Source: a virus
Taxonomy: Duplodnaviria > Caudoviricetes
Virus record (IMG/VR): IMGVR_UViG_3300020577_002562
Coordinates: 1-64,000 of that record
Reading direction: 5' to 3' (one strand)
Length of the DNA stretch: 64,000 nt
Of the stretch, positions 29,179 to 56,635 are shown piece by piece. Within the stretch, counting starts at the first letter, position 1; every line of letters begins with the position of its first letter. The notes under the pieces were generated by a model, which had not been told where the DNA came from, made no database searches, and worked only from the letters and a program-made list of their open reading frames with translations. A program made the translations under genes and the position numbers.

Positions 29179-29187
29179 CTAATTTCA
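29179..29187 (+). promoter_or_regulatory. Candidate late promoter motif [CG]TAATTT[CG]A
   Basis: Also at 40651, 43576 and 55933, each upstream of a virion, lysis or peptide gene. Confidence 0.5.
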
Positions 29188-29242
29188 GACCAGCAGTACC
29201 GGACAGGTCCTGCACTTCCGCAACAACACTCCTGGAGTTGAC

Positions 29243-29365
<123 letters not shown>

Positions 29366-40643: not shown

Positions 40644-40683
40644 TGACGCACTAATTTGAGCCATCTGAACGGAAGACCGGACC

Positions 40684-42846
40684 ATGACCCAACCTGATGT
40701 CTATTTCAGACGAGCCGACGTGTATATTGATGATGGATTCACAGGCCCAGAGAACATCGCATCCCTAGGCGCCAATATCTTGCCCCCAGTGGTTGACTTT
40801 TCGGCTACTCCGCTGATAGGAGTAGCTCCACTGACTGTGGACTTCACGAACTTGTCACAGTACGGTGTGAGTGACGCCTGGGATTTCCAGAACAATGGAT
40901 CGACCGACAGTGTATTGCACAGCCCTACAGGTATTGTGTTTGGTTCCCCTGGTCTGTACTCCGTCAAGTTGACTGTAACGAACACTGCTGGTACAGTTTC
41001 GTTAACCAAGGTGAACTACATTGACGTAGGATCATTGCCCATAGTAGATTTCTCCGGTACTCCGTTGTCTGGTAACGCCCCGTTAGATGTGACGTTCACC
41101 AACTTGTCTTCAGGTGCAGTCTCCTACGCATGGGACTTTGAGAACAACGGATCGACGGATAGTACTGCAACAAACCCGACCCACACGTATCCAGATCCTG
41201 GTACGTATACTGTCAAGCTAACCGGAACTAACGCCTACGGTTCGGCCACTCAAACCAAGACTGCCTACGTGACAGTCAATGCAGTCGGCAATCGGAACGC
41301 ACTACTGACCTTTGAGAGCTTGTTCCCAACAGGAGATAAGAGCCTTGATGCTGCTGTACTGAACCATTACAATGGAGGTACAGACAGCAACGGTAACTCA
41401 GGTCGAAACTATGGCATTGTTTTCGACGCAAACTCGATTGTGAGCTATTCGTTGTACGAGGATGGAACAGCCGACGGCAACTTTGTCTCTAATCCTAGTA
41501 AGGGAGCAGCAGTCTCCAGCCTTGGTGGTACAATAACTATCACCATTGCGGGAGGTTTCTACGAGCAGGTCGTAGCCAGCTTAATCGTGTTGTCGGGCTC
41601 AACTGTAACCATGCGCGTGAAGAATCCAGCGGATGCAGTGATCGCCACGACAACGCTACCATTTACGTCTACTGGAACGGTGTACGATGACTCAAACACC
41701 CCACAAACCGTTGATGTGTGGGAGAAAATCACCTTGGCTTTTGCGGGTGAGGGGCGCAAACTGGAAATAGCTGGTACTGTGAACCAGGTGGCTATCGACA
41801 ATATTCTGTTCCGGCTGCCGTCCAGTCCGTTGAACCCGTCTATCATCGACCCTGACGTTGGCGGTACGTTGACTGCTAACGTATCGAACGGCGCTGTTAC
41901 GTGGTTTGCGATGGAGTGGGATGGTGAACGCGACTATGACTTTGCATTGACGGGAGGTGCAGCAGCCTCAGCCAAAGCTTATGTCTACAAGGGGGAACTA
42001 TCGACGCCGACATCATTCACGTCAGCGGCCCCTTATGCGCTAGATCACGCAGGTGGTATCGTTAAGTTCCCCAACTACGGCAGTAGTTCTCCAGACACCG
42101 TTTGGGTTGGTGTGACTGCTAGCTCTGGCGCTTCAGCGTCGGCCGGATTGACGGTAACTCCAGGGTCTGGGGCAGTTAACCCAGTTAACTTGCAAGTGAC
42201 AGAAAGGGACCGTAGCTTTGCTAGTGTACTCTGGTTGCTGGATGGTCAGGGTGCCGACAACTCGACCACGTTTACGGATCTGTCTACCAATGCCCGTACA
42301 GTGACGCCTACAGGTAACACAAAGATCAGCACGGCACAGTTCAAGTTTGGATCCAGTTCCATCTACTTCGACGGCGTAGGTGACAATCTGACGCTGGCGG
42401 ATACGCCAGACATGAACATAACGGGGTCATTTAACTTCAGAGGTTGGTTCTACATTGAGGCGAACACCAGTCTGAACATGACGTTCTTAGCCTTTGGTGG
42501 AGCTACGCATTGGCAACTGTATCGACGAACTGCCTCTAGTAACAAGCTGGTTCTGTGGAATGGATCATCCAACATCATCATTGGTAGTACCACGCAGATA
42601 GGAACCACGGCCTGGTATCATATTGAGTGGTCATTCGATGGCACGACGCATCGCATTTTTGTCAACGGCAATCTTGAAGGTAGCGCAGTAAGTGCATTGA
42701 GTGTCAACCCAACTTCTATGATCGTCGGAACGTACTTTGATGGAACGGAAGCTTTCCAAGGGTGGGCACAAGACATCGAAGCTACCACAGTAGCACGACA
42801 CACCGCAGCCTTCACAATCCCACGCTATAAGCTTCCTGCAGCTTGA
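40684..42846 (+). CDS. Virion/tail protein with two PKD (Ig-like) domains and a C-terminal LamG domain
   Basis: Two VDFS.TP..G.APL.V.FTN.S...WDF.NNG...PG.Y.VKLT repeats; KFGSSSIYFDG...WYHI...FVNG. Confidence 0.88.
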   Translation: MTQPDVYFRRADVYIDDGFTGPENIASLGANILPPVVDFSATPLIGVAPLTVDFTNLSQYGVSDAWDFQNNGSTDSVLHSPTGIVFGSPGLYSVKLTVTNTAGTVSLTKVNYIDVGSLPIVDFSGTPLSGNAPLDVTFTNLSSGAVSYAWDFENNGSTDSTATNPTHTYPDPGTYTVKLTGTNAYGSATQTKTAYVTVNAVGNRNALLTFESLFPTGDKSLDAAVLNHYNGGTDSNGNSGRNYGIVFDANSIVSYSLYEDGTADGNFVSNPSKGAAVSSLGGTITITIAGGFYEQVVASLIVLSGSTVTMRVKNPADAVIATTTLPFTSTGTVYDDSNTPQTVDVWEKITLAFAGEGRKLEIAGTVNQVAIDNILFRLPSSPLNPSIIDPDVGGTLTANVSNGAVTWFAMEWDGERDYDFALTGGAAASAKAYVYKGELSTPTSFTSAAPYALDHAGGIVKFPNYGSSSPDTVWVGVTASSGASASAGLTVTPGSGAVNPVNLQVTERDRSFASVLWLLDGQGADNSTTFTDLSTNARTVTPTGNTKISTAQFKFGSSSIYFDGVGDNLTLADTPDMNITGSFNFRGWFYIEANTSLNMTFLAFGGATHWQLYRRTASSNKLVLWNGSSNIIIGSTTQIGTTAWYHIEWSFDGTTHRIFVNGNLEGSAVSALSVNPTSMIVGTYFDGTEAFQGWAQDIEATTVARHTAAFTIPRYKLPAA

Positions 42847-45381: not shown

Positions 45382-45722
45382 ACTGGTCTGAATCGATGGT
45401 GCTGGCCGTGGCCGCCATTCTGCTGATGGTGGATGGAATTGTTCAACTCTTGTACGGAGCCTTGCTTAGTAAGTTGCAAGATCGACGCTCTAGACAACAC
45501 CCTAGTCTACGCTTTGTTCTTGGTGTAGGAATGTTCTTGACTGGACTACGATGTATGTACCAGATAGTGTCCGGTACAGAGGTTGCCAAGCTGATTCCTG
45601 GCGATGTACTAATTCCATTGGCACTGATTGGTTTGGGTTCTTTGGGTGTATCATACAGCTCTCTGAGGGAGCTGACCAACTATGTGGCTTCTAACATGAA
45701 GGAAAGCAACCATGGGTGCTAA
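45378..45722 (+). CDS. Membrane protein
   Basis: 3 TMs. Confidence 0.55.
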   Translation: MNWSESMVLAVAAILLMVDGIVQLLYGALLSKLQDRRSRQHPSLRFVLGVGMFLTGLRCMYQIVSGTEVAKLIPGDVLIPLALIGLGSLGVSYSSLRELTNYVASNMKESNHGC

Positions 45723-46245
45723 CAATCCAAACACGATGCTGCCTAGCACTGGCGCAAACTACGAAGCCTACAATCAAGCAATCAATGCGCAGCCATTCAA
45801 CACAAGTGTGTTGGCAGAGTCCATTCCAGCGTCTGGGCTGCCAACACAAACCGCCATGCTGGGGCTACGTCGTGCCGCCGATGTGAACGGTAACGTCAAC
45901 ATCAACAACCCGCTGGAGAATGACGCGCTGGAAAGCGGTCAGCAGGTTATTGTGACTGGTGTGTCTGCGGCACCTGCCAATACTACAGCATGGAAGAGTG
46001 GTGGTCTTGGTTTCTCTGTTCAAGGTAAGTTGACTGCAGGTTCTGCCACCGTCAATATCCAAGGCTCTGATGATCCGCTGGCATTGACGAACCCGAGTAC
46101 AGCGATGTGGACGACTGAAGCCACCTTGTCGCTTACAGGCGCTAATGATGTGAAGGGTGCCATTCTGTCTGGTTCTTACGCAGCGTATCGCTTGAACTTC
46201 AGTGCCATCACAACAGGTCCAGTTGACGTATACCGTGGTGTATAA
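45712..46245 (+). CDS. Probable virion structural protein (jelly-roll-like)
   Basis: G/S/T/A/N-rich; SATVNIQGSDD...W...YRLN. Confidence 0.55.
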   Translation: MGANNPNTMLPSTGANYEAYNQAINAQPFNTSVLAESIPASGLPTQTAMLGLRRAADVNGNVNINNPLENDALESGQQVIVTGVSAAPANTTAWKSGGLGFSVQGKLTAGSATVNIQGSDDPLALTNPSTAMWTTEATLSLTGANDVKGAILSGSYAAYRLNFSAITTGPVDVYRGV

Positions 46246-46257
46246 TCTGGTGCTCAA

Positions 46258-47970
46258 ATGAAACGACTCAAGCCCTTCGGACCGGTTGACGGATTCATTC
46301 ACGTTGGCCTGGTATCCATGTTGTTTTACATGGCAGTGTTTGCCAAACAGAAGCCCTTTCTCAGCGCTGAACTGCTGAAGTCATTGAAGCAATGGGTGCC
46401 ATTGGGTCGTGAGTTCGTCAAGAAGTACGGCATTAGCATCAAAGCATACCAGGCGTACACTCAGTTGCTGATGGTGGCTACTGAAGAAGAAACCATCGAT
46501 GACCACTTGTATGAGCTACTAGATTCCTATAGGGCCGCAATGCCCAAGATTCAGCGTGATGTGTCCATCTCTCACGAACAGCTAGGCATGATCAAGGACA
46601 TCATGCTGTGGATGAAGAACGAGAGTTGCAATGCACTGGCGCGAGTGGAGCGTGGACTGTCTACAGTCACAAGTGAATCAGCGTTGATAGCGGGCTTCCA
46701 GAAGGACTTGGAATCCCAAGATCCGTTCTTGGAAGAGTTGATCCCATTGGTGAAGAAGCTTGGGGGTTCTGGTGTTCCAATCAAGTGGGAACTCACCATT
46801 GAGGAGTCCAGGGCAGTAAACAAAACTAAGCCAGCCCTGTACAAGAAGTATCTTGAACTCAAGCGTACTGTAGAGGGCATAGCGAAGCGCGGACTGATGG
46901 ATTACGTTCGCGCCTCTGGCAAGGAGTCGGTTCCGATTAAAGACGCAGTCAAGTATCTCGAAGCTCAAGGGATACAGCACAAGCTTCCAATGGAGTTCAA
47001 AGGCAACGTCGGTGAAGATGGTGCTCTGTATACTGGTGGTGCCAAACAGCTCAGGCTGTCGTCTGCACCTCGATACAAGATCGTGATGAATCCAAAATAT
47101 GATCCAATCAAAGACGATCAGTTCGTAGCCACGGAGATTCGTCCGACGCTAAACGCCAAGGGTAAACCTAACGTTGCACACCTCTACACTGTGCAGTACA
47201 CGCGTCGCTCCATGCGCGAGAAGTACAAGATGGTGAGTGTGCTCATTAAGAATCAGAACAAGTACCGTCGTAAGTGGATTGAGGACATGAAGTCAGATGA
47301 TCCAGATCGTTGGGTGTTCGGTCTGATGGTTGAGTTGTCTTACAGCACATGCGCTCGTATCTCGGAGCCAGGAGCGGAGAATACGAAGGGCCGCACTTTT
47401 GGATTGAGTTCCTGGCTGGTTGGCAACATCAAACGAATGGGGCCTTCTAGAATCATTGAATACACTGGTAAGGACTCTGTACACCACAAGCACAAGATCG
47501 ACCCGAGCACAGCCATTTCTCGCCTAGTAATCAAGCGTTTGGATTCGTTGACCAAAGACCGCCCGCGTAAAGAACTAGTGTTTGAGGTGGATGGCAAGTA
47601 TTACTCACCACAGAAGATTCGTACCTATTTCAAGACGTTGACCGGCATTTCTGATGTGTCGATTCACAAGATCCGAACCATGCGAGGCACTGAGTTGGCG
47701 GAGAAGGAATTGGAAAAGCGGATTGGCATCCTTGATTCTAAACGCTCTCTCACGCAGACAGTTGTTGACAAGTCATTCCAAGAAGCATTGACCGCAGTTG
47801 GCAAGCTCCTGGGTCACGTGAAGGGGGTCGGTGCAGAACAGAAAGCGACGTGGACCACCGCTAGTAAGAGCTACGTGGACGCGGACTTGCAACGTTCCTT
47901 CTATGAGCACTTTGCAGATCGTGGCATACGTCTGAATAAGACGGTCGCCCGCAACGTTGGAACTAAGTGA
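46258..47970 (+). CDS. Type IB DNA topoisomerase-like protein with a long N-terminal extension
   Basis: STCARI, TFGL, YTGKDSV.H, HKIRT..GT, LGH, T.SKSYVD. Confidence 0.8.
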   Translation: MKRLKPFGPVDGFIHVGLVSMLFYMAVFAKQKPFLSAELLKSLKQWVPLGREFVKKYGISIKAYQAYTQLLMVATEEETIDDHLYELLDSYRAAMPKIQRDVSISHEQLGMIKDIMLWMKNESCNALARVERGLSTVTSESALIAGFQKDLESQDPFLEELIPLVKKLGGSGVPIKWELTIEESRAVNKTKPALYKKYLELKRTVEGIAKRGLMDYVRASGKESVPIKDAVKYLEAQGIQHKLPMEFKGNVGEDGALYTGGAKQLRLSSAPRYKIVMNPKYDPIKDDQFVATEIRPTLNAKGKPNVAHLYTVQYTRRSMREKYKMVSVLIKNQNKYRRKWIEDMKSDDPDRWVFGLMVELSYSTCARISEPGAENTKGRTFGLSSWLVGNIKRMGPSRIIEYTGKDSVHHKHKIDPSTAISRLVIKRLDSLTKDRPRKELVFEVDGKYYSPQKIRTYFKTLTGISDVSIHKIRTMRGTELAEKELEKRIGILDSKRSLTQTVVDKSFQEALTAVGKLLGHVKGVGAEQKATWTTASKSYVDADLQRSFYEHFADRGIRLNKTVARNVGTK

Positions 47971-47979
47971 AAGCCCATC

Positions 47980-48327
47980 ATGAAATTTGATCCTCTGCGT
48001 TTTGGTACCTCTCTTGTTCGCAAGATCGGTGTGCGTAGTCTTCGAGAGAAGTCTCTGAAGTTCGGTGTTGGGTTCATTCATATGGAGCGTGGTGAACTAG
48101 CCAATGCGTTTCCAACAGTTCAAGTCTTGAATGGTAAGCTCAAGAGGCTCAATTCAAACCGACTCGACATCGAGACCCCACCACAAACGTTCGATCTTGC
48201 CCGCAATCATGGTGGATTCATTACCACGTATAGAGCTACCATCAATGATGCAGGCGGTGAAACTGCCGTGGATCTTGAAATCCAGATCGATACTGTAGCA
48301 GCTACCCTCCTTGTTTACGAAGTGTGA
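47980..48327 (+). CDS. Hypothetical protein
   Basis: Packed run. Confidence 0.65.
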   Translation: MKFDPLRFGTSLVRKIGVRSLREKSLKFGVGFIHMERGELANAFPTVQVLNGKLKRLNSNRLDIETPPQTFDLARNHGGFITTYRATINDAGGETAVDLEIQIDTVAATLLVYEV

Positions 48328-48764
48328 TCGCAGCCATGCGCAAGCTCAAGCAAAGCAACGAGTACATCGACCGGCTGATCCTGGAGTTCATGCGTCGCTT
48401 TCCGTCACTGACTACCCGTAGCGGAGCTTATGACAAGTGCAAGCTGGTTAGCCTGGAACTGGCAGCATTCTTGCGCAAGCGTGGCCTCAAGGCTTCGATG
48501 ATCCATCTGCAAACGCCGACAGACGCTTACCCGAACGCTTGCAGCCAATGGCTAGAAAAGCCGGCTGAGGAATGGTCGCACTACGTAGTGAAGGTCGGTA
48601 CTCGATTGATTGATGCCACGGCTCGCCAGTTCGACCCCAAGGCCGATGTTCCGCAAGTGTTACCGATGAGTGTGATGCGTACTAAGTGGAAGGTCATCGA
48701 AGAGGACTCTTTCTTGGATCGTTGGGTCACAGAAGTGATGCCGGTCAAAGAGTTCAACGTATGA
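48324..48764 (+). CDS. Transglutaminase/papain-like protein
   Basis: DKCKLVS..L, HYVVKVG, LIDATARQF (Cys-His-Asp order); likely start at ATG 48336. Confidence 0.6.
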   Translation: MIAAMRKLKQSNEYIDRLILEFMRRFPSLTTRSGAYDKCKLVSLELAAFLRKRGLKASMIHLQTPTDAYPNACSQWLEKPAEEWSHYVVKVGTRLIDATARQFDPKADVPQVLPMSVMRTKWKVIEEDSFLDRWVTEVMPVKEFNV

Positions 48765-49327
48765 AGCGCTTGCAAGTAGCTGCTATCGGCGCCGTCAAGA
48801 AGGGTGCGTTTCATAAGTGGCTGGGCAAGTCTGAGGATTCGCCAATCACTGATGCAGACATCAAGAAGGGCCTAGCATCTGATGATGCGCATGTGCGTAA
48901 GATGGCGAACTTCGCCCGCAATGCTAAGAAGTGGGCGCACTCATCGAGCATCGGGCATCTGGATTCAGAGACTGCTGCCTGGCCCAAAGACTTCTTCAGC
49001 TTGTGTGCCAAAGAGATGCCAAAGGAGTTTAAGGAAGCAGTGAGTATCACCATCCGTGGCTACTACAAAGACATCATGGATTTCACCTGCTACATGAGAA
49101 CATCGCAATCGAACCCTTTGATTCGCTTCTATGATTTCGAGCAGGACACGAGCACCAAGCCAGCGACCAAAGAAGGCGTAGACGACTTTGTGGCGGACAT
49201 CCGCAAGATCGCTAAGAAGAATGGGATGGTTGAAATACGCGACATCAAGAACATGATGGGCCACACGTATGCGTTGACTCGCCTTCCGCGTGGTAACGGT
49301 CTGCGGGTGATTGCGCTTCTTCGCTGA
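48761..49327 (+). CDS. Hypothetical protein
   Basis: Start MKRLQ overlaps the upstream stop; KKGAFHKWLG...RKMANFARN. Confidence 0.7.
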   Translation: MKRLQVAAIGAVKKGAFHKWLGKSEDSPITDADIKKGLASDDAHVRKMANFARNAKKWAHSSSIGHLDSETAAWPKDFFSLCAKEMPKEFKEAVSITIRGYYKDIMDFTCYMRTSQSNPLIRFYDFEQDTSTKPATKEGVDDFVADIRKIAKKNGMVEIRDIKNMMGHTYALTRLPRGNGLRVIALLR

Positions 49328-49356
49328 CCAATCGATACAGACTGTCGGTAAAGTAA

Positions 49357-49794
49357 ATGAAGCAGCTTGTCCAACGTGACCAACGCGCCCGGTCACTTGA
49401 ACGGTACGGAACGACCCACTACTTTGTGCCGTTTCCGATGGAGAACATCGACGATAACTTGAGCCTGCTGTACTTGATGATGAAGCACCGACTGCCAAAG
49501 GCTTCTGTCGTCAAGATTGCGGTGGATAGTCTAGTGGCGATACAGAACTCTGTTAGCTGTGCCGGAGTTCGTAGATACAAGCGAGGTGATCGCAACCCCA
49601 TCCTAGTAGCAAGAATCAATGGGGTCAACTACATCATTGATGGAACACACCGAGCAACTGCTGCGTGGGCTATGCGAGAACCGTTCGTGTATGCTCACTA
49701 CCTTGAGTTCAGAGGGTTGGACTTGAGGCACCATTACGGTGGAATGACAACATCAGAGTGGAACGCTCTGTATGATGAGGCCTTAGTGAAATGA
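49357..49794 (+). CDS. ParB/Srx-like domain protein
   Basis: L.AIQ..V, PILVARINGVNYIIDGTHRATAA. Confidence 0.7.
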   Translation: MKQLVQRDQRARSLERYGTTHYFVPFPMENIDDNLSLLYLMMKHRLPKASVVKIAVDSLVAIQNSVSCAGVRRYKRGDRNPILVARINGVNYIIDGTHRATAAWAMREPFVYAHYLEFRGLDLRHHYGGMTTSEWNALYDEALVK

Positions 49795-50273
49795 AACAGC
49801 TAGTCACGGCAAAGACCTACAAGCCTTTCACTAGAGCTGGTGGTCTGTATAGCTCCTGCACAGTCAAGGATGAAGCACGTTTGGTGTCGTGGTGTCAGAA
49901 CCTACAACTGCCGGTGGAAGAGGCAGAGAATGGTGAACTGCATGTCACCGTGATCTACAGTCCACAGCATTGTCCTCCCGACGCTACTCCGCTTCCGACC
50001 TCAGGTATGGCAACGGTGATCGGAGTAGATCTGTTTGGACCAGAGGGTGATACACTGGTCTTGCTGCTGCAAAGTGCATTTCTGGCCGAGTTGCACGACC
50101 GCTGGCGGGATCTTGGTTGCGTGCCAACCTTTCCTATGTACAGGCCACACATCACATTACAAAAGAACGTGCGCCAGTGTGATCTGGAGGGCTTCAATTC
50201 TCGAATCCAGTGCAGTCCACTGCTGACGGTAGAGTTATCTCCTGAAGTACTAGAGGACATCAAAGATGGGTAA
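49791..50273 (+). CDS. acb1: 2H phosphodiesterase, anti-CBASS Acb1 family
   Basis: GLY, LHVTVIYS, LFG, LVL.L.S..L..LH, FP.YRPHITL. Confidence 0.8.
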   Translation: MKQLVTAKTYKPFTRAGGLYSSCTVKDEARLVSWCQNLQLPVEEAENGELHVTVIYSPQHCPPDATPLPTSGMATVIGVDLFGPEGDTLVLLLQSAFLAELHDRWRDLGCVPTFPMYRPHITLQKNVRQCDLEGFNSRIQCSPLLTVELSPEVLEDIKDG

Positions 50274-50499
50274 TCCTTACGCTTACCGACCTCGTCCACA
50301 ATCCAAGTTCAACAGATACAGTGTCACTGTCCAGTACGCGGGCGAGATGAAAGAGTATGAGACAATGGCACAGACTGAAGCAGGTGCCAAAGCAAACGTA
50401 GCGTACCGTGTCGCCAAGGACTGGAATCTAGTGGTCAGTCTGGTACACGCTAAGATACGTTCAGGTGACATCGTGTTCACCATCAAACAAATCGGCTGA
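50266..50499 (+). CDS. Hypothetical protein
   Basis: Packed run. Confidence 0.6.
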   Translation: MGNPYAYRPRPQSKFNRYSVTVQYAGEMKEYETMAQTEAGAKANVAYRVAKDWNLVVSLVHAKIRSGDIVFTIKQIG

Positions 50500-50567
50500 A
50501 TCAGCCCTACTCAAGCTCCAAACCTGATCGTTAGATCTACGGTGACTGCAATACAAGGAAGACGATC

Positions 50568-50978
50568 ATGGAAGCCGGAGCCAACTCTATCTTTCAGTGG
50601 GTGCTCTCTATGAACGCTGCAACGTGGACACTGCTGGTCCTGACGGTTGCTGGTCTAGCAGTTGCCTGGCGTGCTCAGACACGCGATGACTTCGACTTTG
50701 CTCGCATGCTGCTGGACAGCAACGGCAAACCCAGCGCCACGCGAATGGGAACGTTTGTGTGCTTGGCGGTCAGCACTTACGTCTTGATCTTGGCCTTCAT
50801 CAACGCCAAGGACAACGTCACCACCAATGTCCTCTATATGTTCGGCATCTACTTGGCAGTGTGGAGTGGTGCAAAAGTCATCGAGCGTGCCATTGACGCA
50901 TGGGTCTCGATCAAGGGAGGCAATCCACTTCCACCAGCGCCACAAGTACAAACGCCTCCCACTGCTGAAGACAAGTGA
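50568..50978 (+). CDS. Membrane protein (holin-like)
   Basis: 3 TMs; D.NGKPS.TR motif. Confidence 0.6.
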   Translation: MEAGANSIFQWVLSMNAATWTLLVLTVAGLAVAWRAQTRDDFDFARMLLDSNGKPSATRMGTFVCLAVSTYVLILAFINAKDNVTTNVLYMFGIYLAVWSGAKVIERAIDAWVSIKGGNPLPPAPQVQTPPTAEDK

Positions 50979-51469
50979 TGAAACGACTTGTGCAAAGACT
51001 AACTGCCACGAACGTTACTGATCTGACGATCAGGCGTTGGTACGATAAGTCTACGAGAAACTGGATCGTCACTCTACATGACTCTGATGACAATCAAGTA
51101 GGTGATAGCATTGTTGTCTATAGTCGCGGTGAAGCCTCGAACATCAAGAAAGACAATCCAGCGTTCAATGTACCCTCGGAGCCGGAAGACCGCTACGGCT
51201 TTTCCGTGCCTCAAGAGTTTAGGCCGGCGATGAGGGCGCTCGTCCGAACTGTAGACACAAATCCAGGTGATGTCCAAGTTTGGGACGTAAAGACCAGGTC
51301 GCTTAAGTTTCGCCTCTACTACAGCAGCGCCACGCTCTTCATCACACGCGATTCAGCAGGGGCAAGAGGAGTCTGCGGTGTGTTGCCAATTCTGCGTTGG
51401 ATGAAAGCGAAACTCGTGCGCCTGCGGTTGGGTACTCAAGAGCTAACTCTACGCAATCTTAAAGCTTGA
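50978..51469 (+). CDS. Hypothetical protein
   Basis: MKRLV start. Confidence 0.65.
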   Translation: MKRLVQRLTATNVTDLTIRRWYDKSTRNWIVTLHDSDDNQVGDSIVVYSRGEASNIKKDNPAFNVPSEPEDRYGFSVPQEFRPAMRALVRTVDTNPGDVQVWDVKTRSLKFRLYYSSATLFITRDSAGARGVCGVLPILRWMKAKLVRLRLGTQELTLRNLKA

Positions 51470-51471
51470 CC

Positions 51472-52200
51472 ATGAAACGGCTTGCCAAACCTGTCACGTA
51501 TGCTCAGTACCGCCACGCTATCTTGGCTGCCACTGGCCAGGAAGTTGCGTGGTCTTTCTCTTTGCCTCCGCAACTGGTCAAGTTCGTAGCGACGATCAAA
51601 CAGGTGCTGAAGCAGATTGCTGACCAGACGGGCGCGGCAATCGCGGACATAGGTAGAGCACTGGCACACAAGCAGATGTTCGCAGTGCTGAAAGCAATCG
51701 GATTCAACCTGAAGAAGCTGTTGGATGGGTTTGGCAAGCTGATGGCATTGATGCGTCAAGGTCTGACTGACGTGTTCAGAGCACTTGAAGACAAAGGAGT
51801 GCTGAAGCACTTGGCAAGTGGTGCTCATCACGTAGATGAGTTCCTTGATCATCACCCAGTGTTGCGCAAACTGATCGGATCAGCATTGGCTGCGTTCTTG
51901 TTCTGGGTGTGGTTGAACATGGCTTTCGTTGGTGACCCGGCGTATGACTTTGACCTTAGCTCGGTAGTTGCCGCATTCTCTGGTCGGTACACCATCTACC
52001 AATTCTTTGCCAGCCCTGATGCCTTGACCACGTTCACGTTCTTGGCGGCGGGCTTCTTGGGCTTTGGAGTACAGTGGCTTGGAGCTACCATACCGAACCT
52101 CATTGTAGCGATGGTGGCTACAGGCTTCAAGATGTGGAAAGACTCCGCGCACAAGAAGCAACTGCAACCAGTGTTGAAGCTTACTAGGCTAACACCATGA
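51472..52200 (+). CDS. Membrane protein with amphipathic helices
   Basis: MKRLA start; 2-3 C-terminal TMs. Confidence 0.7.
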   Translation: MKRLAKPVTYAQYRHAILAATGQEVAWSFSLPPQLVKFVATIKQVLKQIADQTGAAIADIGRALAHKQMFAVLKAIGFNLKKLLDGFGKLMALMRQGLTDVFRALEDKGVLKHLASGAHHVDEFLDHHPVLRKLIGSALAAFLFWVWLNMAFVGDPAYDFDLSSVVAAFSGRYTIYQFFASPDALTTFTFLAAGFLGFGVQWLGATIPNLIVAMVATGFKMWKDSAHKKQLQPVLKLTRLTP

Positions 52201-54119
52201 AACAACTGATGACTCTGGCAGCGAACATCTCCGATCTGGAACGTTTGGTACGTTTGCTGAAGAAGGCCAAAGACTCGTACTACAATGATGGTACGTTCTA
52301 CAGGGCAGAGCCGCGTGAGTTTCCTGCTGATCTGCGCCCAGACGGCCCACAGCTAATCACGGACAAGCGTTACGATAAGCTGGAAGACGCACTGCGAGAA
52401 CGCGACCCGACGAACAAGCTGTTGCGCAGCGTCGGTACTGCGTCAAGACAAAAGGTCAAGCTCCCGTTCTACATGGGCAGCTTGACCAAAGTACGTTCAG
52501 AGTCGGAAATCGTTGACTGGTCCGAAGAGTACCCAGGACCATGGGTCATCAGCGACAAGATCGATGGCATCAGCATTCTCTTGTCATACAAGAGCGACGC
52601 GGTGAAACTCTACACGAGAGGTGAAGCTACCTCTGGTATGGACATCACGCATCTGGCACCGCATCTCAAGTTGCCGAAGCTGAAGGGCACGTTTGCCTTG
52701 CGTGGCGAACTGGTGATGAGCAAGTCACGGTTCGACAGTAAGTGGGCGCAAGCATTCAAGAACCCTCGCAACATGGCGGCCGGCTTGGCGAATCGCAAAG
52801 ACGTACATGATGCAGTCAAAGACCTGACGGTCATGATCTACGAAGTGCTTGTGCCTCGCGTCAAACCATCGCGTGCTCTGAAGTGGGCCAAGTCCAAGGG
52901 ATTCACTGTTGTTCCGCACAAAGTCGTCACTGACATCGACGGAGACTATCTGCACCAGACGTTCATGCGTCGGCGTGCCGCAGGCAAGTACGAAGTTGAC
53001 GGTTTGGTGTTGGTTCAAGACCAGGTTCATCCGTTGAACAAGCAGCCGTATCCAGATTGGGGGCGTGCGTTCAAGAGCGAGTTGGCGGATGACGTTGCCA
53101 ATGCCACAGTCAAGAGCGTGGAGTGGAGACCTAGTCGTCACGGCTACCTGGTGCCGCTGATTCACGTTGAGCCGGTTAAGCTCAAGGGCGTGACTGTCAG
53201 CAAAGCCAGCGGTAAGAATGCAGGCTTCATCCGTGACAACAAGATCGGCACTGGTGCTGTAGTGAGGCTGCGCCGCAGCGGTGACGTGATCCCGGACGTG
53301 AAAGATGGCGACGTAATCAAGCCAGCACGCAAAGCGGCACTGCCACCCGCCACGTATCGCTGGCACTGGGACAGCGGTCAAGTCAACATCGTGCTGACTT
53401 CCAAGACGGAACAGAAGAACGCACCTGAAATTCAAGTGCAGGTGCTTGAGCACTTCTTCAAGACGTTGGGGGTTGAGCGGATCAAGGCAGCTACACTGAT
53501 GTTGTTCGTAGAACAGGGTTATCAGAATGTGATCCAGGTGCTGCGTTTGAGTCGTCGTCAGTTCACCAACATCGAAGGAGGGTCGGCCAAGGTGTTGGAT
53601 GCTGTGTACGATCAGCTGCAGGAGCGTCTGGCGGAAGTCGATCTACCGACGCTGATGGATGCATCGAACGTGTTTGGACGGGGCTTTGGTACACGTCGAT
53701 GCTCGGCCATCGTCAATGCATTGCCCAATATTCTGAAGCTCAGTGGTCGGGAAGACTTGCCGCAGCGCATCGACGAGATTGAGGGCTTCGACTTGAAGAC
53801 TGCTAGCGGCTTTGCCGCCAAGCTCCCTCTGTTCGTGAAGTGGCTTGCAAAGTCTGGTATCACACCGCGTGGGCCAAAGCGTGTACGTCCGGTTGGCAGC
53901 AAGCTGGACGGCCACCGTGTTCTGTTCACAGGTTTCCGTGATAGCGACTTGGAGAAGCGCATCGTTGCCAACGGGGGTCAGATTGCTAGTGGTGCTAGTA
54001 AGGCCACTATTCTGCTGGCGAAAGACCCTGGAGGCAACTCTGCCAAGTTGAATGCCGCACGGCAGCGTGGGATCAAGATCATGACGGCAGACCAGTTCAT
54101 TCGCAAGTACGGTATCTGA
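52197..54119 (+). CDS. ligA: NAD-dependent DNA ligase
   Basis: YYN, YDKL, MGSL.K, KIDG, TRG, RGE, NPRN, EVDG, RSGDVIP, C-terminal BRCT (FTGFRD..LE). Confidence 0.95.
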   Translation: MKQLMTLAANISDLERLVRLLKKAKDSYYNDGTFYRAEPREFPADLRPDGPQLITDKRYDKLEDALRERDPTNKLLRSVGTASRQKVKLPFYMGSLTKVRSESEIVDWSEEYPGPWVISDKIDGISILLSYKSDAVKLYTRGEATSGMDITHLAPHLKLPKLKGTFALRGELVMSKSRFDSKWAQAFKNPRNMAAGLANRKDVHDAVKDLTVMIYEVLVPRVKPSRALKWAKSKGFTVVPHKVVTDIDGDYLHQTFMRRRAAGKYEVDGLVLVQDQVHPLNKQPYPDWGRAFKSELADDVANATVKSVEWRPSRHGYLVPLIHVEPVKLKGVTVSKASGKNAGFIRDNKIGTGAVVRLRRSGDVIPDVKDGDVIKPARKAALPPATYRWHWDSGQVNIVLTSKTEQKNAPEIQVQVLEHFFKTLGVERIKAATLMLFVEQGYQNVIQVLRLSRRQFTNIEGGSAKVLDAVYDQLQERLAEVDLPTLMDASNVFGRGFGTRRCSAIVNALPNILKLSGREDLPQRIDEIEGFDLKTASGFAAKLPLFVKWLAKSGITPRGPKRVRPVGSKLDGHRVLFTGFRDSDLEKRIVANGGQIASGASKATILLAKDPGGNSAKLNAARQRGIKIMTADQFIRKYGI

Positions 54120-54220
54120 CCATGAAACCGTCTACTAGCCGCATACAGCTTGGAAAATGTCCAAGAACGAAGCCCAAGAGTTCACGGAAGCCAACCTGAT
54201 ATAGATAGGTAGAATCCATT

Positions 54221-55039
54221 ATGTCATATGTAGTAACGCGGAAGTTCACGTACTACTCGGCGAAGAACTCGCGGGAGCTGAATTTAACTCCAGGTGATGT
54301 GTTCAACTGCTCATTCAATGAGGCAACACGCTTCTATACCATTGAAGTACAAGGGGACATAAAGTATAGATTGACCGGCGTCGCATGGAAAACATTGTTA
54401 GAGCACTCTCAACCCGTCAAAACGGTTAAAGAGGGTGGTCTAGACTTAAAGTATCTGACTAGGTGGTGGGATTCGCTATCAAGCGCCGAACAACGGAGAG
54501 AACTTTCATTGATCCAGATGGTTCCAGAGTGGTTTACTACCGGAGCTTTTGGAAAGAAGATGCGATTATCATCCAAACCTTCGCTAGCGGGTATGTATGA
54601 TAGCCAAGCTGTATATGAAGGTGCTCCTAGAGTTTGGCTGAGACTGCGTAGACTGATGAAGAAACTACCACCAGTTCGCACAGTGTACAGAGTACAGGCC
54701 ATCTCAAGAACTGCTTTAGTGAGGACGTCAACTACAGTTACTCCGCTAAAGGATATGACCAGTTTCTCACTGTCACCCGACATAAAAGACACACTGTTGG
54801 CTATACTACCAAAAATGCGTGGCGGTCCCAAAGTTTTATTGACCGTTCGCGTTACTGATGAAAGCCAAGTCCTGTTTGACTACCGATGGGTACGAAGCGT
54901 ACTGAACTCGACTGTAGATCATCCTTGGCTGAATCAGATACGTAAAAGTTGGCGTGTGGTGTATCGCTCTTTTCTTCTTGAAGAAGAAATAGTCCTGTAC
55001 ACTCCAAAACCATTCCGAGCAAAGCTTATCCCTCTTTGA
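54221..55039 (+). CDS. Candidate R-S-E-clade ADP-ribosyltransferase with an SH3-like N-terminus
   Basis: TVYR, MTSFS, LEEEIVL in the expected order; ELNLTPGD. Confidence 0.45.
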   Translation: MSYVVTRKFTYYSAKNSRELNLTPGDVFNCSFNEATRFYTIEVQGDIKYRLTGVAWKTLLEHSQPVKTVKEGGLDLKYLTRWWDSLSSAEQRRELSLIQMVPEWFTTGAFGKKMRLSSKPSLAGMYDSQAVYEGAPRVWLRLRRLMKKLPPVRTVYRVQAISRTALVRTSTTVTPLKDMTSFSLSPDIKDTLLAILPKMRGGPKVLLTVRVTDESQVLFDYRWVRSVLNSTVDHPWLNQIRKSWRVVYRSFLLEEEIVLYTPKPFRAKLIPL

Positions 55040-55477
55040 ATGATTGAAGACCCCATGACCGACATGACCGAAGCAATTGGCGTTGTGCATTACAAGAAGG
55101 GCTACAAGTACCAGTTGGTACAGGCTTTCAAGATCCAGACTACGGTGAAGCCTCCATTGGATGTGCATACCGACTGGATCGACTTGACCAAAGACGGCAT
55201 GCTGACGCTGGCTCCAGGTTATGCATGGAATGGACCGAATTGGCCTGCCATTGACACTGAGACTTTCCGGCGCGGGTCTCTGGTGCACGATGCTCTATAC
55301 CAACTGATCTCTGACATGAAGATCAGTACGTCCATGAGAGCGGAGGCTGATCACATGCTGAGAAGGGTCTGTATAGACTCTGGTATGTGGCCGCCGCGTG
55401 CTTGGTGGGTATGGACTGGAGTGCGAATTTTCGGCCGTAAGTACGCAACTGCCATCAATCCAACACTAGTGGCGTGA
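55040..55477 (+). CDS. DUF1353-like protein
   Basis: GYAWNG, SLVHDALYQ, R.EAD, VRIFG. Confidence 0.75.
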   Translation: MIEDPMTDMTEAIGVVHYKKGYKYQLVQAFKIQTTVKPPLDVHTDWIDLTKDGMLTLAPGYAWNGPNWPAIDTETFRRGSLVHDALYQLISDMKISTSMRAEADHMLRRVCIDSGMWPPRAWWVWTGVRIFGRKYATAINPTLVA

Positions 55478-55479
55478 TC

Positions 55480-55947
55480 ATGCGCAAACTCCTTCAATTG
55501 GGAACTGCCACTGCATACGAGCCAGATAGTGAGCCTACTGGCGGCATCACGCAAAAACGAGTAGGTCAACCGGAGTGGTTGAGCAAGCACATCTACGTAG
55601 TCGATGAGATATGGTGCATGCCTGGTTGTCCTGACACGGCGATGCGCGTGTGCTACAACAAGTCCGACCAGTACGTAGGCGATGAAGACACAGGTCGCTA
55701 TCTGGCTCAACGAGGCATCGCCCCTGAACCGGCTGATCCGCAACACAGTGTCTGTTCCATTGGCTACTGCGAAAAGGACGGCAAGTGGTATGGATGGTCG
55801 CACCGTGCCATGTTCGGTTTCAAAGTCGGTGACCCACCATCTAGGCCCGGTGACTGTATCAGGCACGGACGAATTGTTGACGACACCTACGCAAAGCAAT
55901 GTGCTCGCCGATTCGCCCGATCAGTGAGTACAGTAATTTCACTCTGA
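55480..55947 (+). CDS. Conserved-looking phage hypothetical protein
   Basis: CSIGY.EKDGKWYGWSHRAMFGF.VG. Confidence 0.75.
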   Translation: MRKLLQLGTATAYEPDSEPTGGITQKRVGQPEWLSKHIYVVDEIWCMPGCPDTAMRVCYNKSDQYVGDEDTGRYLAQRGIAPEPADPQHSVCSIGYCEKDGKWYGWSHRAMFGFKVGDPPSRPGDCIRHGRIVDDTYAKQCARRFARSVSTVISL

Positions 55948-56020: not shown

Positions 56021-56548
56021 ATGGCAAAGACCTACACGATCCAGAATCTGGGTCAATCGATTGTTGCTCTCCCGGAGGGCGTGTTCTATCCGAACGTTCC
56101 TGGCCGTTCGGTTACCGTTGACTACGATCTGAGCGCCAAGGCTATTGCGGCCATGTCGAACGGCACAGTCAGCATTTCGCCAAAGCCGTCCACGGTGGCA
56201 GGCCCAGCACCTGATGCTGATGTGACCAACTCGGTAACCGTGTCGAGCAACACGGTAACGCCGAACTTGGATCTCGGTATGTACGTGACACCGGCTACAG
56301 CTATCGCAGCAAACCTGACGATTGCCAACCCGACGAACTCGTCGCAATCCAAGTACGCGGGCTTGAAGATGAACATTGCACTGCTTAAGGATGCGACTGG
56401 TGGCACGTACACCATCACGTATGGTTCGCAGTACAAAGGGACGACCCTTGGCTCGTTCGCTGCCACGGTCAGCGTCAAGTACCTGATCGAATTCACTTGT
56501 GACGGTACCAACTGGGTGCAGACCGGAATCTCGGCCGCGTACACATGA
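56021..56548 (+). CDS. Probable virion structural/decoration protein
   Basis: T/S/A/G-rich; LTIANPTN, DATGG.YTIT.G, F.CDGTNW; GGAG SD. Confidence 0.65.
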   Translation: MAKTYTIQNLGQSIVALPEGVFYPNVPGRSVTVDYDLSAKAIAAMSNGTVSISPKPSTVAGPAPDADVTNSVTVSSNTVTPNLDLGMYVTPATAIAANLTIANPTNSSQSKYAGLKMNIALLKDATGGTYTITYGSQYKGTTLGSFAATVSVKYLIEFTCDGTNWVQTGISAAYT

Positions 56549-56598: not shown

Positions 56599-56635
56599 AG
56601 AAGGGGCGGTGGAGAATTTCTCCACCGCCCCTTCT
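56599..56635. terminator. Bidirectional terminator-like inverted repeat between convergent blocks
   Basis: 18-bp arms AGAAGGGGCGGTGGAGAA-T-TTCTCCACCGCCCCTTCT. Confidence 0.8.

What the first reader, a model, noticed from the sequence alone, without database searches (positions are those of the whole stretch)
46258..55947. Shared N-terminal M-[KR]-[RQK]-L leader on nine unrelated proteins: candidate capsid-targeting signal for injected enzymes
Seen starts: 46258 MKRLKPF (topo IB), 48336 MRKLKQS (Cys-His-Asp enzyme), 48761 MKRLQVAA, 49357 MKQLVQR (ParB-like), 49791 MKQLVTA (Acb1), 50978 MKRLVQRLTA, 51472 MKRLAKPVT (membrane), 52197 MKQLMTLAA (ligase), 55480 MRKLLQLGTA. The codons vary (AAA CGA CTC, AAG CGC TTG, AAA CAG CTA), so conservation is at protein level. 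I did not see this start among the genes called outside this block. Established: T4 internal proteins share a short N-terminal capsid-targeting sequence removed by the prohead protease. Inference: ligase, topoisomerase and anti-defence proteins sit among late genes because they are packaged and co-ejected with the DNA.
Basis: partly seen in the sequence, partly recalled or inferred. Interest (0 to 1): 0.82.

Follow-up and report, generated by a model that had tools for sequence, protein, structure and literature searches.

The report
Shared address tag on phage enzymes
Nine unrelated neighbouring genes of an uncultured 187-kb phage, among them a DNA ligase, a topoisomerase and two anti-defence enzymes, start with the same four amino acids; relatives use the tag too, and it most likely sorts these proteins into the virus head, though no experiment shows this.

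Summary
All nine starts read M-[KR]-[RQK]-L. They are 9 of the 14 genes in 46258-55947, against 3 of about 249 genes in the rest of the 187-kb phage genome (Fisher p = 3e-11). The nine proteins are unrelated by BLASTP, and the codons differ, so the tag is kept at protein level. A looser form, often followed by a small-Ala-small or RLxx[TS]A element, marks a second gene cluster at 142-155 kb. It also marks orthologues and non-orthologous genes in relatives (a Logan contig, Vibrio phage GR7B, Ralstonia phage RSL1).

Both clusters sit behind a candidate late promoter that is shared with the head and portal operons. In relatives the same genes lie in one operon with a head-tail connector and a giant helicase. 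The PaBG homologue of that helicase is a published virion protein.

The phage has a T4 gp21-type head protease, and its capsid protein has a conserved short N-terminal A-X-E site. The capsid-targeting reading is therefore the best explanation (about 45%). It remains unproven: there are no virion data for tagged proteins, and the tags carry no consistent cleavage motif.

This scan has already noted analogous tags in other Lu11/PaBG-like jumbo phages. I found no paper that describes them.

The parts
46258..47970 (+). tagged gene 1: topoisomerase IB, starts MKRL
   Evidence: Pfam PF01028, E 2e-14. A 52%-identical homologue, P0242, starts MKKL.
48336..48764 (+). tagged gene 2: 142 aa, unknown function, starts MRKL
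   Evidence: No family match. Its orthologue in L001 (40% identity, aligned from residue 1) starts MKQL.
48761..49327 (+). tagged gene 3: 188 aa, unknown function, starts MKRL; ATGA overlap with the gene before
49357..49794 (+). tagged gene 4: 145 aa, unknown function, starts MKQL
49791..50273 (+). tagged gene 5: Acb1 (anti-CBASS phosphodiesterase), starts MKQL
   Evidence: Pfam PF23474, E 2e-17, with the domain starting at residue 18. Aligns to PDB 7t26 with a 14-residue N-terminal overhang. The GR7B and L001 homologues carry their own phage's tag.
50978..51469 (+). tagged gene 6: 163 aa, unknown function, starts MKRL and then has a T-A-T element
51472..52200 (+). tagged gene 7: 242 aa with hydrophobic C-terminal half (likely membrane protein), starts MKRL
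   Evidence: Read from the translation; no family match.
52197..54119 (+). tagged gene 8: NAD-dependent DNA ligase, starts MKQL
   Evidence: Pfam PF01653, PF03120 and PF00533. The closest 15 or so homologues (at most 48% identity) keep MK-x-L followed by small residues; more distant ones do not.
55480..55947 (+). tagged gene 9: Tad6-type Thoeris inhibitor, starts MRKL and then has a T-A-T element
   Evidence: Pfam PF25188, E 5e-30, with the domain starting at residue 35. The tag and a Pro/Asp/Ser/Glu/Gly-rich linker precede it.
40651..40658 (+). candidate late promoter ACTAATTT, 33 nt upstream of the tail-fibre-like gene 40684-42846 that opens the unit holding the lysis genes and the tagged block
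   Evidence: The same motif lies 13-84 nt upstream of the head operon, a fibre gene and cluster B, and 249 nt upstream of the portal gene. 10-12 of 19 copies are intergenic and correctly oriented, whereas 9% of the genome is intergenic.
56599..56635 (.). 17-bp-stem bidirectional terminator closing the unit
   Evidence: The only strong terminator-like site between 40000 and 57500.
47980..48327 (+). untagged gene inside the block. The other untagged genes are 50266-50499, 50568-50978, 54221-55039 and 55040-55477.
   Evidence: They show that the tag is not a property of every gene in the operon.

Best explanation
The four-residue start, often followed within about ten residues by a small-Ala-small element, is a short portable N-terminal address tag. 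It is used by this phage and by its relatives in the RSL1/PaBG/Lu11/GR7B group of jumbo myoviruses. Most likely it directs a changeable set of enzymes and counter-defence proteins into the assembling prohead, so that they are packaged and leave the capsid with the DNA, as the capsid-targeting sequence of T4 does for IPI-III and Alt. The set here is topoisomerase IB, NAD-ligase, Acb1, Tad6, a membrane protein and unknowns, and elsewhere in the genome a phosphatase-like protein (PHROG polynucleotide-kinase/phosphoheptose-isomerase families). Shown: the tag exists, is selected at peptide level, is portable between unrelated proteins and is shared across relatives. Also shown: the genes lie in units that carry the promoter motif of the virion operons, and the phage has a gp21-type protease. 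Inferred: binding to a prohead component, packaging, ejection, and any trimming of the tag.
For: (1) The clustering is far beyond chance and the proteins are unrelated.
(2) The tag acts at peptide level and is not tied to the AUG. Codons vary and K/R swap. In GR7B, RSL1 and cluster B the same motif sits 0-3 residues further in.
(3) The tag is portable and the cargo varies. In L001, 7-8 of 19 genes start MKQL or a near variant. Three are orthologues of tagged genes here; four have no homologue in this genome.
(4) It is absent from the DNA polymerase, SSB, UvsX, clamp loader and gyrase, and from the tail and baseplate proteins. So it is neither a general replication-protein feature nor a general late-gene feature.
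(5) The head-operon proteins (467-aa protein, capsid protein, scaffold-like protein) also start M-K/R, and so do the GR7B capsid protein and 488-aa homologue.
(6) A candidate late promoter is shared with the head, portal and fibre operons. It precedes cluster B and the unit that contains cluster A.
(7) Cluster B contains a head-tail connector homologue. In GR7B, RSL1 and PhiXhv-12, various of the topo IB, Acb1 and ligase genes lie in that same operon, between the connector and the giant helicase.
(8) Experimental anchor: purified PaBG virions contain gp202, a 221-kDa helicase (PMC7412058, Table 1). It is the homologue of this phage's 1566-aa helicase. PaBG topo IB gp84 lies next to the head genes gp80-83.
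(9) The protease is gp21-like, with invariant His125, Ser184 and Glu240. The capsid protein has a conserved P-V-V-A-T-E type site at a median position of residue 18: 101 of 120 homologues have [AGS]-x-E there. This matches the A/S/G-X-E rule of the T4-type proteases and T4's 10-20-residue propeptides (PMC5694885).
Against: No virion proteome exists for this phage or for any tagged protein in a relative.
The tags have no consistent Glu site. The first Glu follows A/S/G-x in only 6 of 18 tagged proteins, against about 4 expected, as read. So trimming, a defining part of the T4 system, is unsupported.
One tagged protein looks like an integral membrane protein.
The ligase and the topoisomerase are also needed inside the cell.
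Four residues carry little information, and only 9 of 29 M-K/R-x-hydrophobic starts carry the strict second element.
Ligase homologues in L002 and L004 keep MK-x-L although their neighbours are untagged, so for the ligase the start may partly be intrinsic.
One solved Acb1 (9q2g) has an N-terminus of similar length.
The 'late promoter' is a motif inference only.
Confidence: 0.45

Rival explanations
1. The tag is a docking or sorting peptide for a destination other than the capsid. Candidates are a common chaperone or hub protein, the replication factory, a sliding clamp, or the membrane.
For: The tag is clearly a peptide-level portable signal. Several carriers act on DNA: ligase, topoisomerase IB and the giant helicase. 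K-Q-L-x-x-L loosely resembles clamp-binding peptides.
Against: Acb1, Tad6, a phosphatase-like protein and a membrane protein have no reason to sit at a replisome. The DNA polymerase, SSB, UvsX and clamp loader lack the tag. Positions 4-5 of the clamp motif are not kept, and the GR7B and RSL1 versions do not resemble it. No DnaN-type clamp was detected by Pfam.
Confidence: 0.2
2. The tag is a degradation or timing signal (an N-terminal degron read by a host or phage protease) that limits the lifetime of accessory proteins.
For: It is a short N-terminal Met-basic-hydrophobic peptide on accessory and counter-defence proteins. This pattern is vaguely like the N-terminal ClpX recognition motifs (from my own knowledge; not tested).
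Against: A degron does not explain why the capsid protein and other head-operon proteins begin in a similar way. It does not explain the genetic linkage to the connector and virion-helicase operon. A ligase that must act throughout replication is an odd target.
Confidence: 0.1
3. The shared start reflects translation: a favourable early-codon context (AAA/AAG at codon 2, ATGA stop-start overlaps) in tightly coupled genes with weak Shine-Dalgarno sites.
For: Gene junctions are tight (ATGA or TGATG overlaps, or gaps of 2-29 nt) and the upstream Shine-Dalgarno sites look weak. Lys at codon 2 is generally favoured (my own knowledge).
Against: This does not explain R/Q at residue 3 and Leu at residue 4 with varied codons, nor the K/R swap. 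The motif shifts by 1-3 residues from the AUG in GR7B, RSL1 and cluster B. Five equally coupled genes in the block, and the tail genes, lack it.
Confidence: 0.07
4. Chance, or common descent of the 5' ends (paralogy or cassette recombination), without any function.
For: The motif is only four residues long. The L001 Acb1 carries a second tag in front of a degenerate one, which hints at recombination at the 5' ends.
Against: Fisher p = 3e-11. There is no paralogy and no conserved upstream or synonymous-site DNA identity. The tag is kept in orthologues at 40-52% identity.
Confidence: 0.03

Closest known systems
Capsid-targeting sequence (CTS) of phage T4 internal proteins IPI-III and Alt, removed by prohead protease gp21 (Mullaney and Black 1996, as summarised in PMC5694885)
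   Same: Both are short N-terminal peptides shared by unrelated proteins. Both mark genes that cluster in variable loci. The phage has a gp21-type protease. The carriers include counter-defence proteins, as IPI* is in T4.
   Different: There is no sequence likeness beyond M-K. The tag is 4-11 residues long and loosely bipartite, not a fixed 10-mer. It has no consistent x-x-Glu cut site. The cargo is larger and mostly enzymatic (ligase, topoisomerase IB, Acb1, Tad6). Neither packaging nor trimming has been shown.
N-terminal propeptides of head and ejection proteins of giant phages SPN3US and phiKZ, cut at A/S/G-X-E (PMC5694885, PMC10052503)
   Same: These are jumbo myoviruses with a T4-type protease. 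The capsid protein here has a conserved A-X-E-type site. In SPN3US, paralogues gp53 and gp54 share an identical 15-residue N-terminus.
   Different: Those propeptides are mostly longer than 100 residues and are shared only between paralogues. Here a very short tag sits on non-homologous proteins.
Phage P1 Dar system (packaged antirestriction proteins, including the 2255-aa methylase-helicase DarB)
   Same: A giant helicase-type protein is a virion component in the PaBG homologue (PMC7412058). It is encoded beside small accessory proteins.
   Different: No homology to Dar proteins was tested here. What I know of P1's N-terminal packaging signal comes from memory, not from a tool.
Cargo-loading peptides of encapsulins (HK97-fold shells)
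   Same: The concept is the same: a short terminal peptide docks varied cargo inside an HK97-fold shell.
   Different: Encapsulin peptides are usually C-terminal and have another consensus. No docking on the capsid protein was tested.

Membership tests
T4-type capsid-targeting sequence system | The same short N-terminal peptide on several non-homologous proteins of one phage | tested here: met
   9 of 14 genes carry it, p = 3e-11, with no paralogy.
T4-type capsid-targeting sequence system | The phage encodes a gp21-type (S77-like) prohead protease | tested here: met
   phrog_18299 head maturation protease, E 1e-65. Homologues are annotated as prohead core protease. His125, Ser184 and Glu240 are invariant in 61 sequences. 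A Pfam PF03420 scan of the genome was negative, but the control did not ring either.
T4-type capsid-targeting sequence system | The tag ends in the protease's cut motif (hydrophobic or small residue, any residue, Glu) | tested here: inconclusive
   The capsid protein has a conserved A-T-E site. Only 6 of 18 tags are followed by [ASG]-x-E as their first Glu, about the chance level. Three of six RSL1 tags do end [AS]-x-E.
T4-type capsid-targeting sequence system | Tagged proteins are present in proheads or virions, and the tag is sufficient for packaging | not testable with these tools
   Only indirect evidence: the PaBG virion contains the homologous giant helicase gp202.
T4-type capsid-targeting sequence system | Sequence similarity to the T4 CTS 10-mer | tested here: not met
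   Only M-K is shared (compared with the T4 sequence as recalled and as described in PMC5694885).
Sec-type signal peptide | A basic n-region followed by a hydrophobic h-region of 10-15 residues | tested here: not met
   Only the topoisomerase has a hydrophobic stretch after the tag. The other eight continue with polar residues.
Bacterial beta-clamp-binding motif (Q-L-[SD]-L-F) | Gln-Leu, then hydrophobic residues at positions 4 and 5, on clamp clients including the polymerase | tested here: not met
   Gln is present in only 3 of 9 tags. Positions 4-5 are not kept. The polymerase is untagged. No DnaN Pfam match was found.
Acb1 / Tad6 / topoisomerase IB / NAD-ligase (the cargo domains) | A Pfam match above the curated cut-off | tested here: met
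   Scores against cut-offs: PF23474 63.7 bits (27); PF25188 105 (27); PF01028 53.8 (23.7); PF01653 66.5 (27).

The most novel reading that the evidence does not exclude
RSL1/PaBG/Lu11/GR7B-type jumbo phages use an evolvable N-terminal address code to load a rapidly changing toolkit into the capsid. The toolkit includes the anti-CBASS enzyme Acb1, the anti-Thoeris protein Tad6, a DNA ligase, a topoisomerase IB and a giant helicase. Counter-defence and DNA-repair enzymes would then enter the cell together with the genome, before any phage gene is expressed.
Probability: 0.3. Interest if true: 0.8.

Novelty: new variant of a known kind. Interest (0 to 1): 0.6.

Why it matters
If the tag loads proteins into the head, Acb1- and Tad6-type inhibitors would be delivered as ready-made proteins. 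That changes how the timing of CBASS and Thoeris immunity against such phages should be understood. The tag would also give a simple rule for predicting injected proteins in a large, mostly uncultured group of jumbo phages. It would offer a very short handle for packaging foreign proteins into phage heads. Even if the destination proves to be something else, the tag defines a functional class of about 20 proteins per genome, most of which have no annotation.

Tried and rejected
(1) Complex prediction of the head protease (61-row alignment) with residues 1-40 of the Tad6 homologue gave no verdict (score 0.00). This is no evidence either way.
(2) I suspected that the variable N-terminal region of the protease carries a tag-like motif. 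A regex test on 105 homologues was not significant: 5 against 1.9 +/- 1.4, and 7 against 2.8 +/- 1.6. The idea is dropped.
(3) A consistent Glu cleavage site behind the tags was not found.
(4) Close relatives were sought in IMG/VR with the ligase and the topoisomerase and none was found. Megablast against phage genomes found none. A metagenome scan with the connector protein gave only two distant loci without this tag. The 209-kb NCBI contig behind L020 could not be searched. The contig of P0242 gave no DNA.
(5) The Lu11 region syntenic to cluster B shows no obvious tag. The PaBG region shows none of the MK-x-L type.
(6) The clamp-binding reading was considered and rejected.
(7) Literature searches for a description of such tags in this phage group found none. 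The RSL1 paper by Yamada et al. (DOI 10.1016/j.virol.2009.11.043), which I expected to hold virion-proteome data, is not held.
(8) Pfam, PHROGs and NCBIfam gave nothing for the six unknown tagged proteins.


Full report
WHAT THE DNA IS. The window is the first 64 kb of a single 187,209-bp virus contig with 52% G+C. It has no near relative among 50,697 phage genomes. Its major capsid protein (genome 76383-77456) is 38-51% identical to those of Ralstonia phage RSL1, Vibrio phages GR7B and GR11A, Xanthomonas PhiXhv phages, Burkholderia BcepSauron, and Pseudomonas PaBG and Lu11. The head protease (109215-110006, minus strand) belongs to the family annotated as T4-like prohead core protease. His125, Ser184 and Glu240 are invariant in an alignment of 61 homologues.

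THE OBSERVATION. Four read MKRL, three MKQL and two MRKL. Codon use differs between copies, and Lys and Arg change places, so what is conserved is the peptide and not the RNA.

- In a six-frame scan of the whole genome, only 12 sites combine M-[KR]-[RQK]-L with a start-like position. Nine of them are these.
- With my own gene call (262 genes, 91% coding), that is 9 of 14 genes in the block against 3 of about 249 elsewhere, p = 2.9e-11.
- The tagged proteins share nothing else: all-against-all BLASTP gives no E-value below 0.1.
- Pfam confirms topoisomerase IB, Acb1 and NAD-ligase, and shows that 55480 is a Tad6-type Thoeris inhibitor.
- The labels 'ParB-like' and 'Cys-His-Asp enzyme' could not be confirmed.

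THE TAG IS WIDER THAN THE FINDING. A second cluster on the minus strand at 142-155 kb has about ten genes starting M-K-[RHQT]-[LIV] or carrying R-L-x-x-[TS]-A close to the N-terminus.

- RL..[TSA]A occurs 15 times in the proteome against 5.5 +/- 2.3 in shuffles, and 8 of the 15 lie in that cluster.
- A small-Ala-small element within residues 4-16 follows 9 of 29 M-K/R-x-hydrophobic starts, against 18 of 233 other starts, p = 9e-4.

The tag is therefore loosely bipartite: a basic-Leu head and a T/S/A-Ala-T/S tail.

RELATIVES.
- Ligase homologues. The closest ones (37-48% identity) nearly all begin MK-x-L followed by small residues. More distant viral and cellular ligases do not.
- Logan contig L001 (syntenic, Acb1 and ligase). 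Seven or eight of its 19 genes start MKQL or a near variant. Three are orthologues of tagged genes here. Four have no homologue in this genome. The tag is thus kept while the cargo set changes.
- Topoisomerase. The one detectable close homologue starts MKKL.
- Vibrio phage GR7B. Six or more genes around its ligase begin M-I-K-[EQ]-V or M-x-I-K-R-[LI], followed by A-[AS]. These include its Acb1 homologue and a NUDIX protein.
- RSL1. Six small proteins of the syntenic region carry A-A-x-x-R-L-x-[AG]-[ST] at the N-terminus.

In these phages the motif sits 0-3 residues further from the initiator Met. That argues against a translation-initiation signal.

CONTEXT. The plus-strand run 17-56 kb holds SSB, UvsX, SbcCD and clamp-loader genes. 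After these come a tail-fibre or baseplate-like gene (40684), an endolysin with likely holin and spanin genes, and then the tagged block.

- The motif ACTAATTT lies 33 nt before 40684. It also lies 13-84 nt before the head operon (74169), a fibre gene (97127) and the first gene of cluster B (155656), and 249 nt before the portal gene (112601). Of its 19 copies, 10-12 are intergenic and correctly oriented, although only 9% of the genome is intergenic.
- The only strong terminator after 40651 is the 17-bp hairpin at 56599-56635.
- Cluster B contains a head-tail connector homologue.
- In GR7B, RSL1 and PhiXhv-12, various of the topoisomerase IB, Acb1 and ligase genes lie inside that same connector-to-giant-helicase operon. 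The window's block therefore looks like a translocated part of one ancestral operon.

AN EXPERIMENTAL ANCHOR. The structural proteome of CsCl-purified PaBG lists as band 1 a 221-kDa helicase-like protein, gp202. It also lists several unknown proteins, including gp191 and gp83 (PMC7412058, Table 1). PaBG_00202 is the homologue of this phage's 1566-aa helicase and lies in the syntenic operon. PaBG topoisomerase IB (gp84) lies beside the head genes gp80-83. So at least one enzyme of this operon type is packaged in a relative.

PROTEASE AND TRIMMING. All characterised T4-type head proteases cut after Glu in an A/S/G/L/I-X-E motif, and T4 propeptides are 10-20 residues long (PMC5694885). In 120 capsid-protein homologues, a variable and often Lys-rich 8-20-residue N-terminus is followed by a conserved P-V-V-A-[TS]-[ED]-L. 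At the acidic position the counts are Glu 82 and Asp 20, and 101 of the 120 have [AGS]-x-E there. A short capsid propeptide is therefore plausible. The tags themselves show no consistent Glu site in this phage, while half of the RSL1 tags end [AS]-x-E. Whether the tag is removed remains open.

WHAT FAILED. A protease-tag complex prediction gave no verdict. My impression of a tag-like motif in protease pro-regions was not significant. Further close relatives could not be fetched. No paper describing these tags was found.

EARLIER NOTES OF THIS SCAN. Other windows of this genome noted the RLxx[TS]A motif and the promoter motif. Follow-ups on other Lu11/PaBG-like jumbo phages reported analogous tags with other sequences. 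These are unchecked AI notes. I re-tested the two motifs here, but not the claims about other genomes.

VERDICT. Capsid targeting is the best-supported mechanism (about 0.45). Its support is the linkage to virion operons, the PaBG virion helicase, the gp21-type protease and the analogy with T4. Neither packaging nor cleavage of any tagged protein has been shown.

Noticed in passing
genome 137567-142267 (-), outside the window (L008:13567-18267): A 1566-aa helicase (phrog_21391). Its PaBG homologue gp202 is a Coomassie-visible virion protein. It may be a packaged DarB-like enzyme.
   Followed up: partly
genome 108063-109184 (-), L007:4063-5184: A 373-aa protein directly downstream of the head protease carries an H-E-x-x-H metalloprotease motif (SprT-like by eye).
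   Followed up: no
genome 77511-78029 (+), L005:13511-14029: A 172-aa protein after the capsid gene is very acidic and Gln-rich, with a basic C-terminal tail. It is a scaffold candidate by composition only; PHROGs gave no match.
   Followed up: no
genome 74253-75656 (+), L005:10253-11656: A 467-aa protein heads the capsid operon. It has CxxC pairs and a long acidic stretch and starts M-R-K-Q-L. Homologues stand before the capsid genes of GR7B and RSL1.
   Followed up: partly
window 29179-29365: A copy of the candidate late promoter lies 64 nt before a 40-codon ORF for a very Lys/Ala-rich peptide. This may be a small DNA-binding or internal protein.
   Followed up: no
window 56599-56635: A perfect 17-bp-stem bidirectional terminator lies between convergent genes.
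   Followed up: yes
window 45712-46245 and 56021-56548: Two Thr/Ser/Gly/Ala-rich proteins of about 175 aa with no family match flank the tagged block. The second has a homologue in L001 (37% identity).
   Followed up: partly
L001:4936-5460: The Acb1 of the relative carries a fresh tag in front of a degenerate copy of the tag position seen here. This suggests that tags can be re-added at 5' ends.
   Followed up: partly
L024:14307-20224: A distant low-GC phage contig holds five paralogous 264-320-aa genes, all starting M-K-I/V-P-W-T. This is a separate N-terminal family.
   Followed up: no
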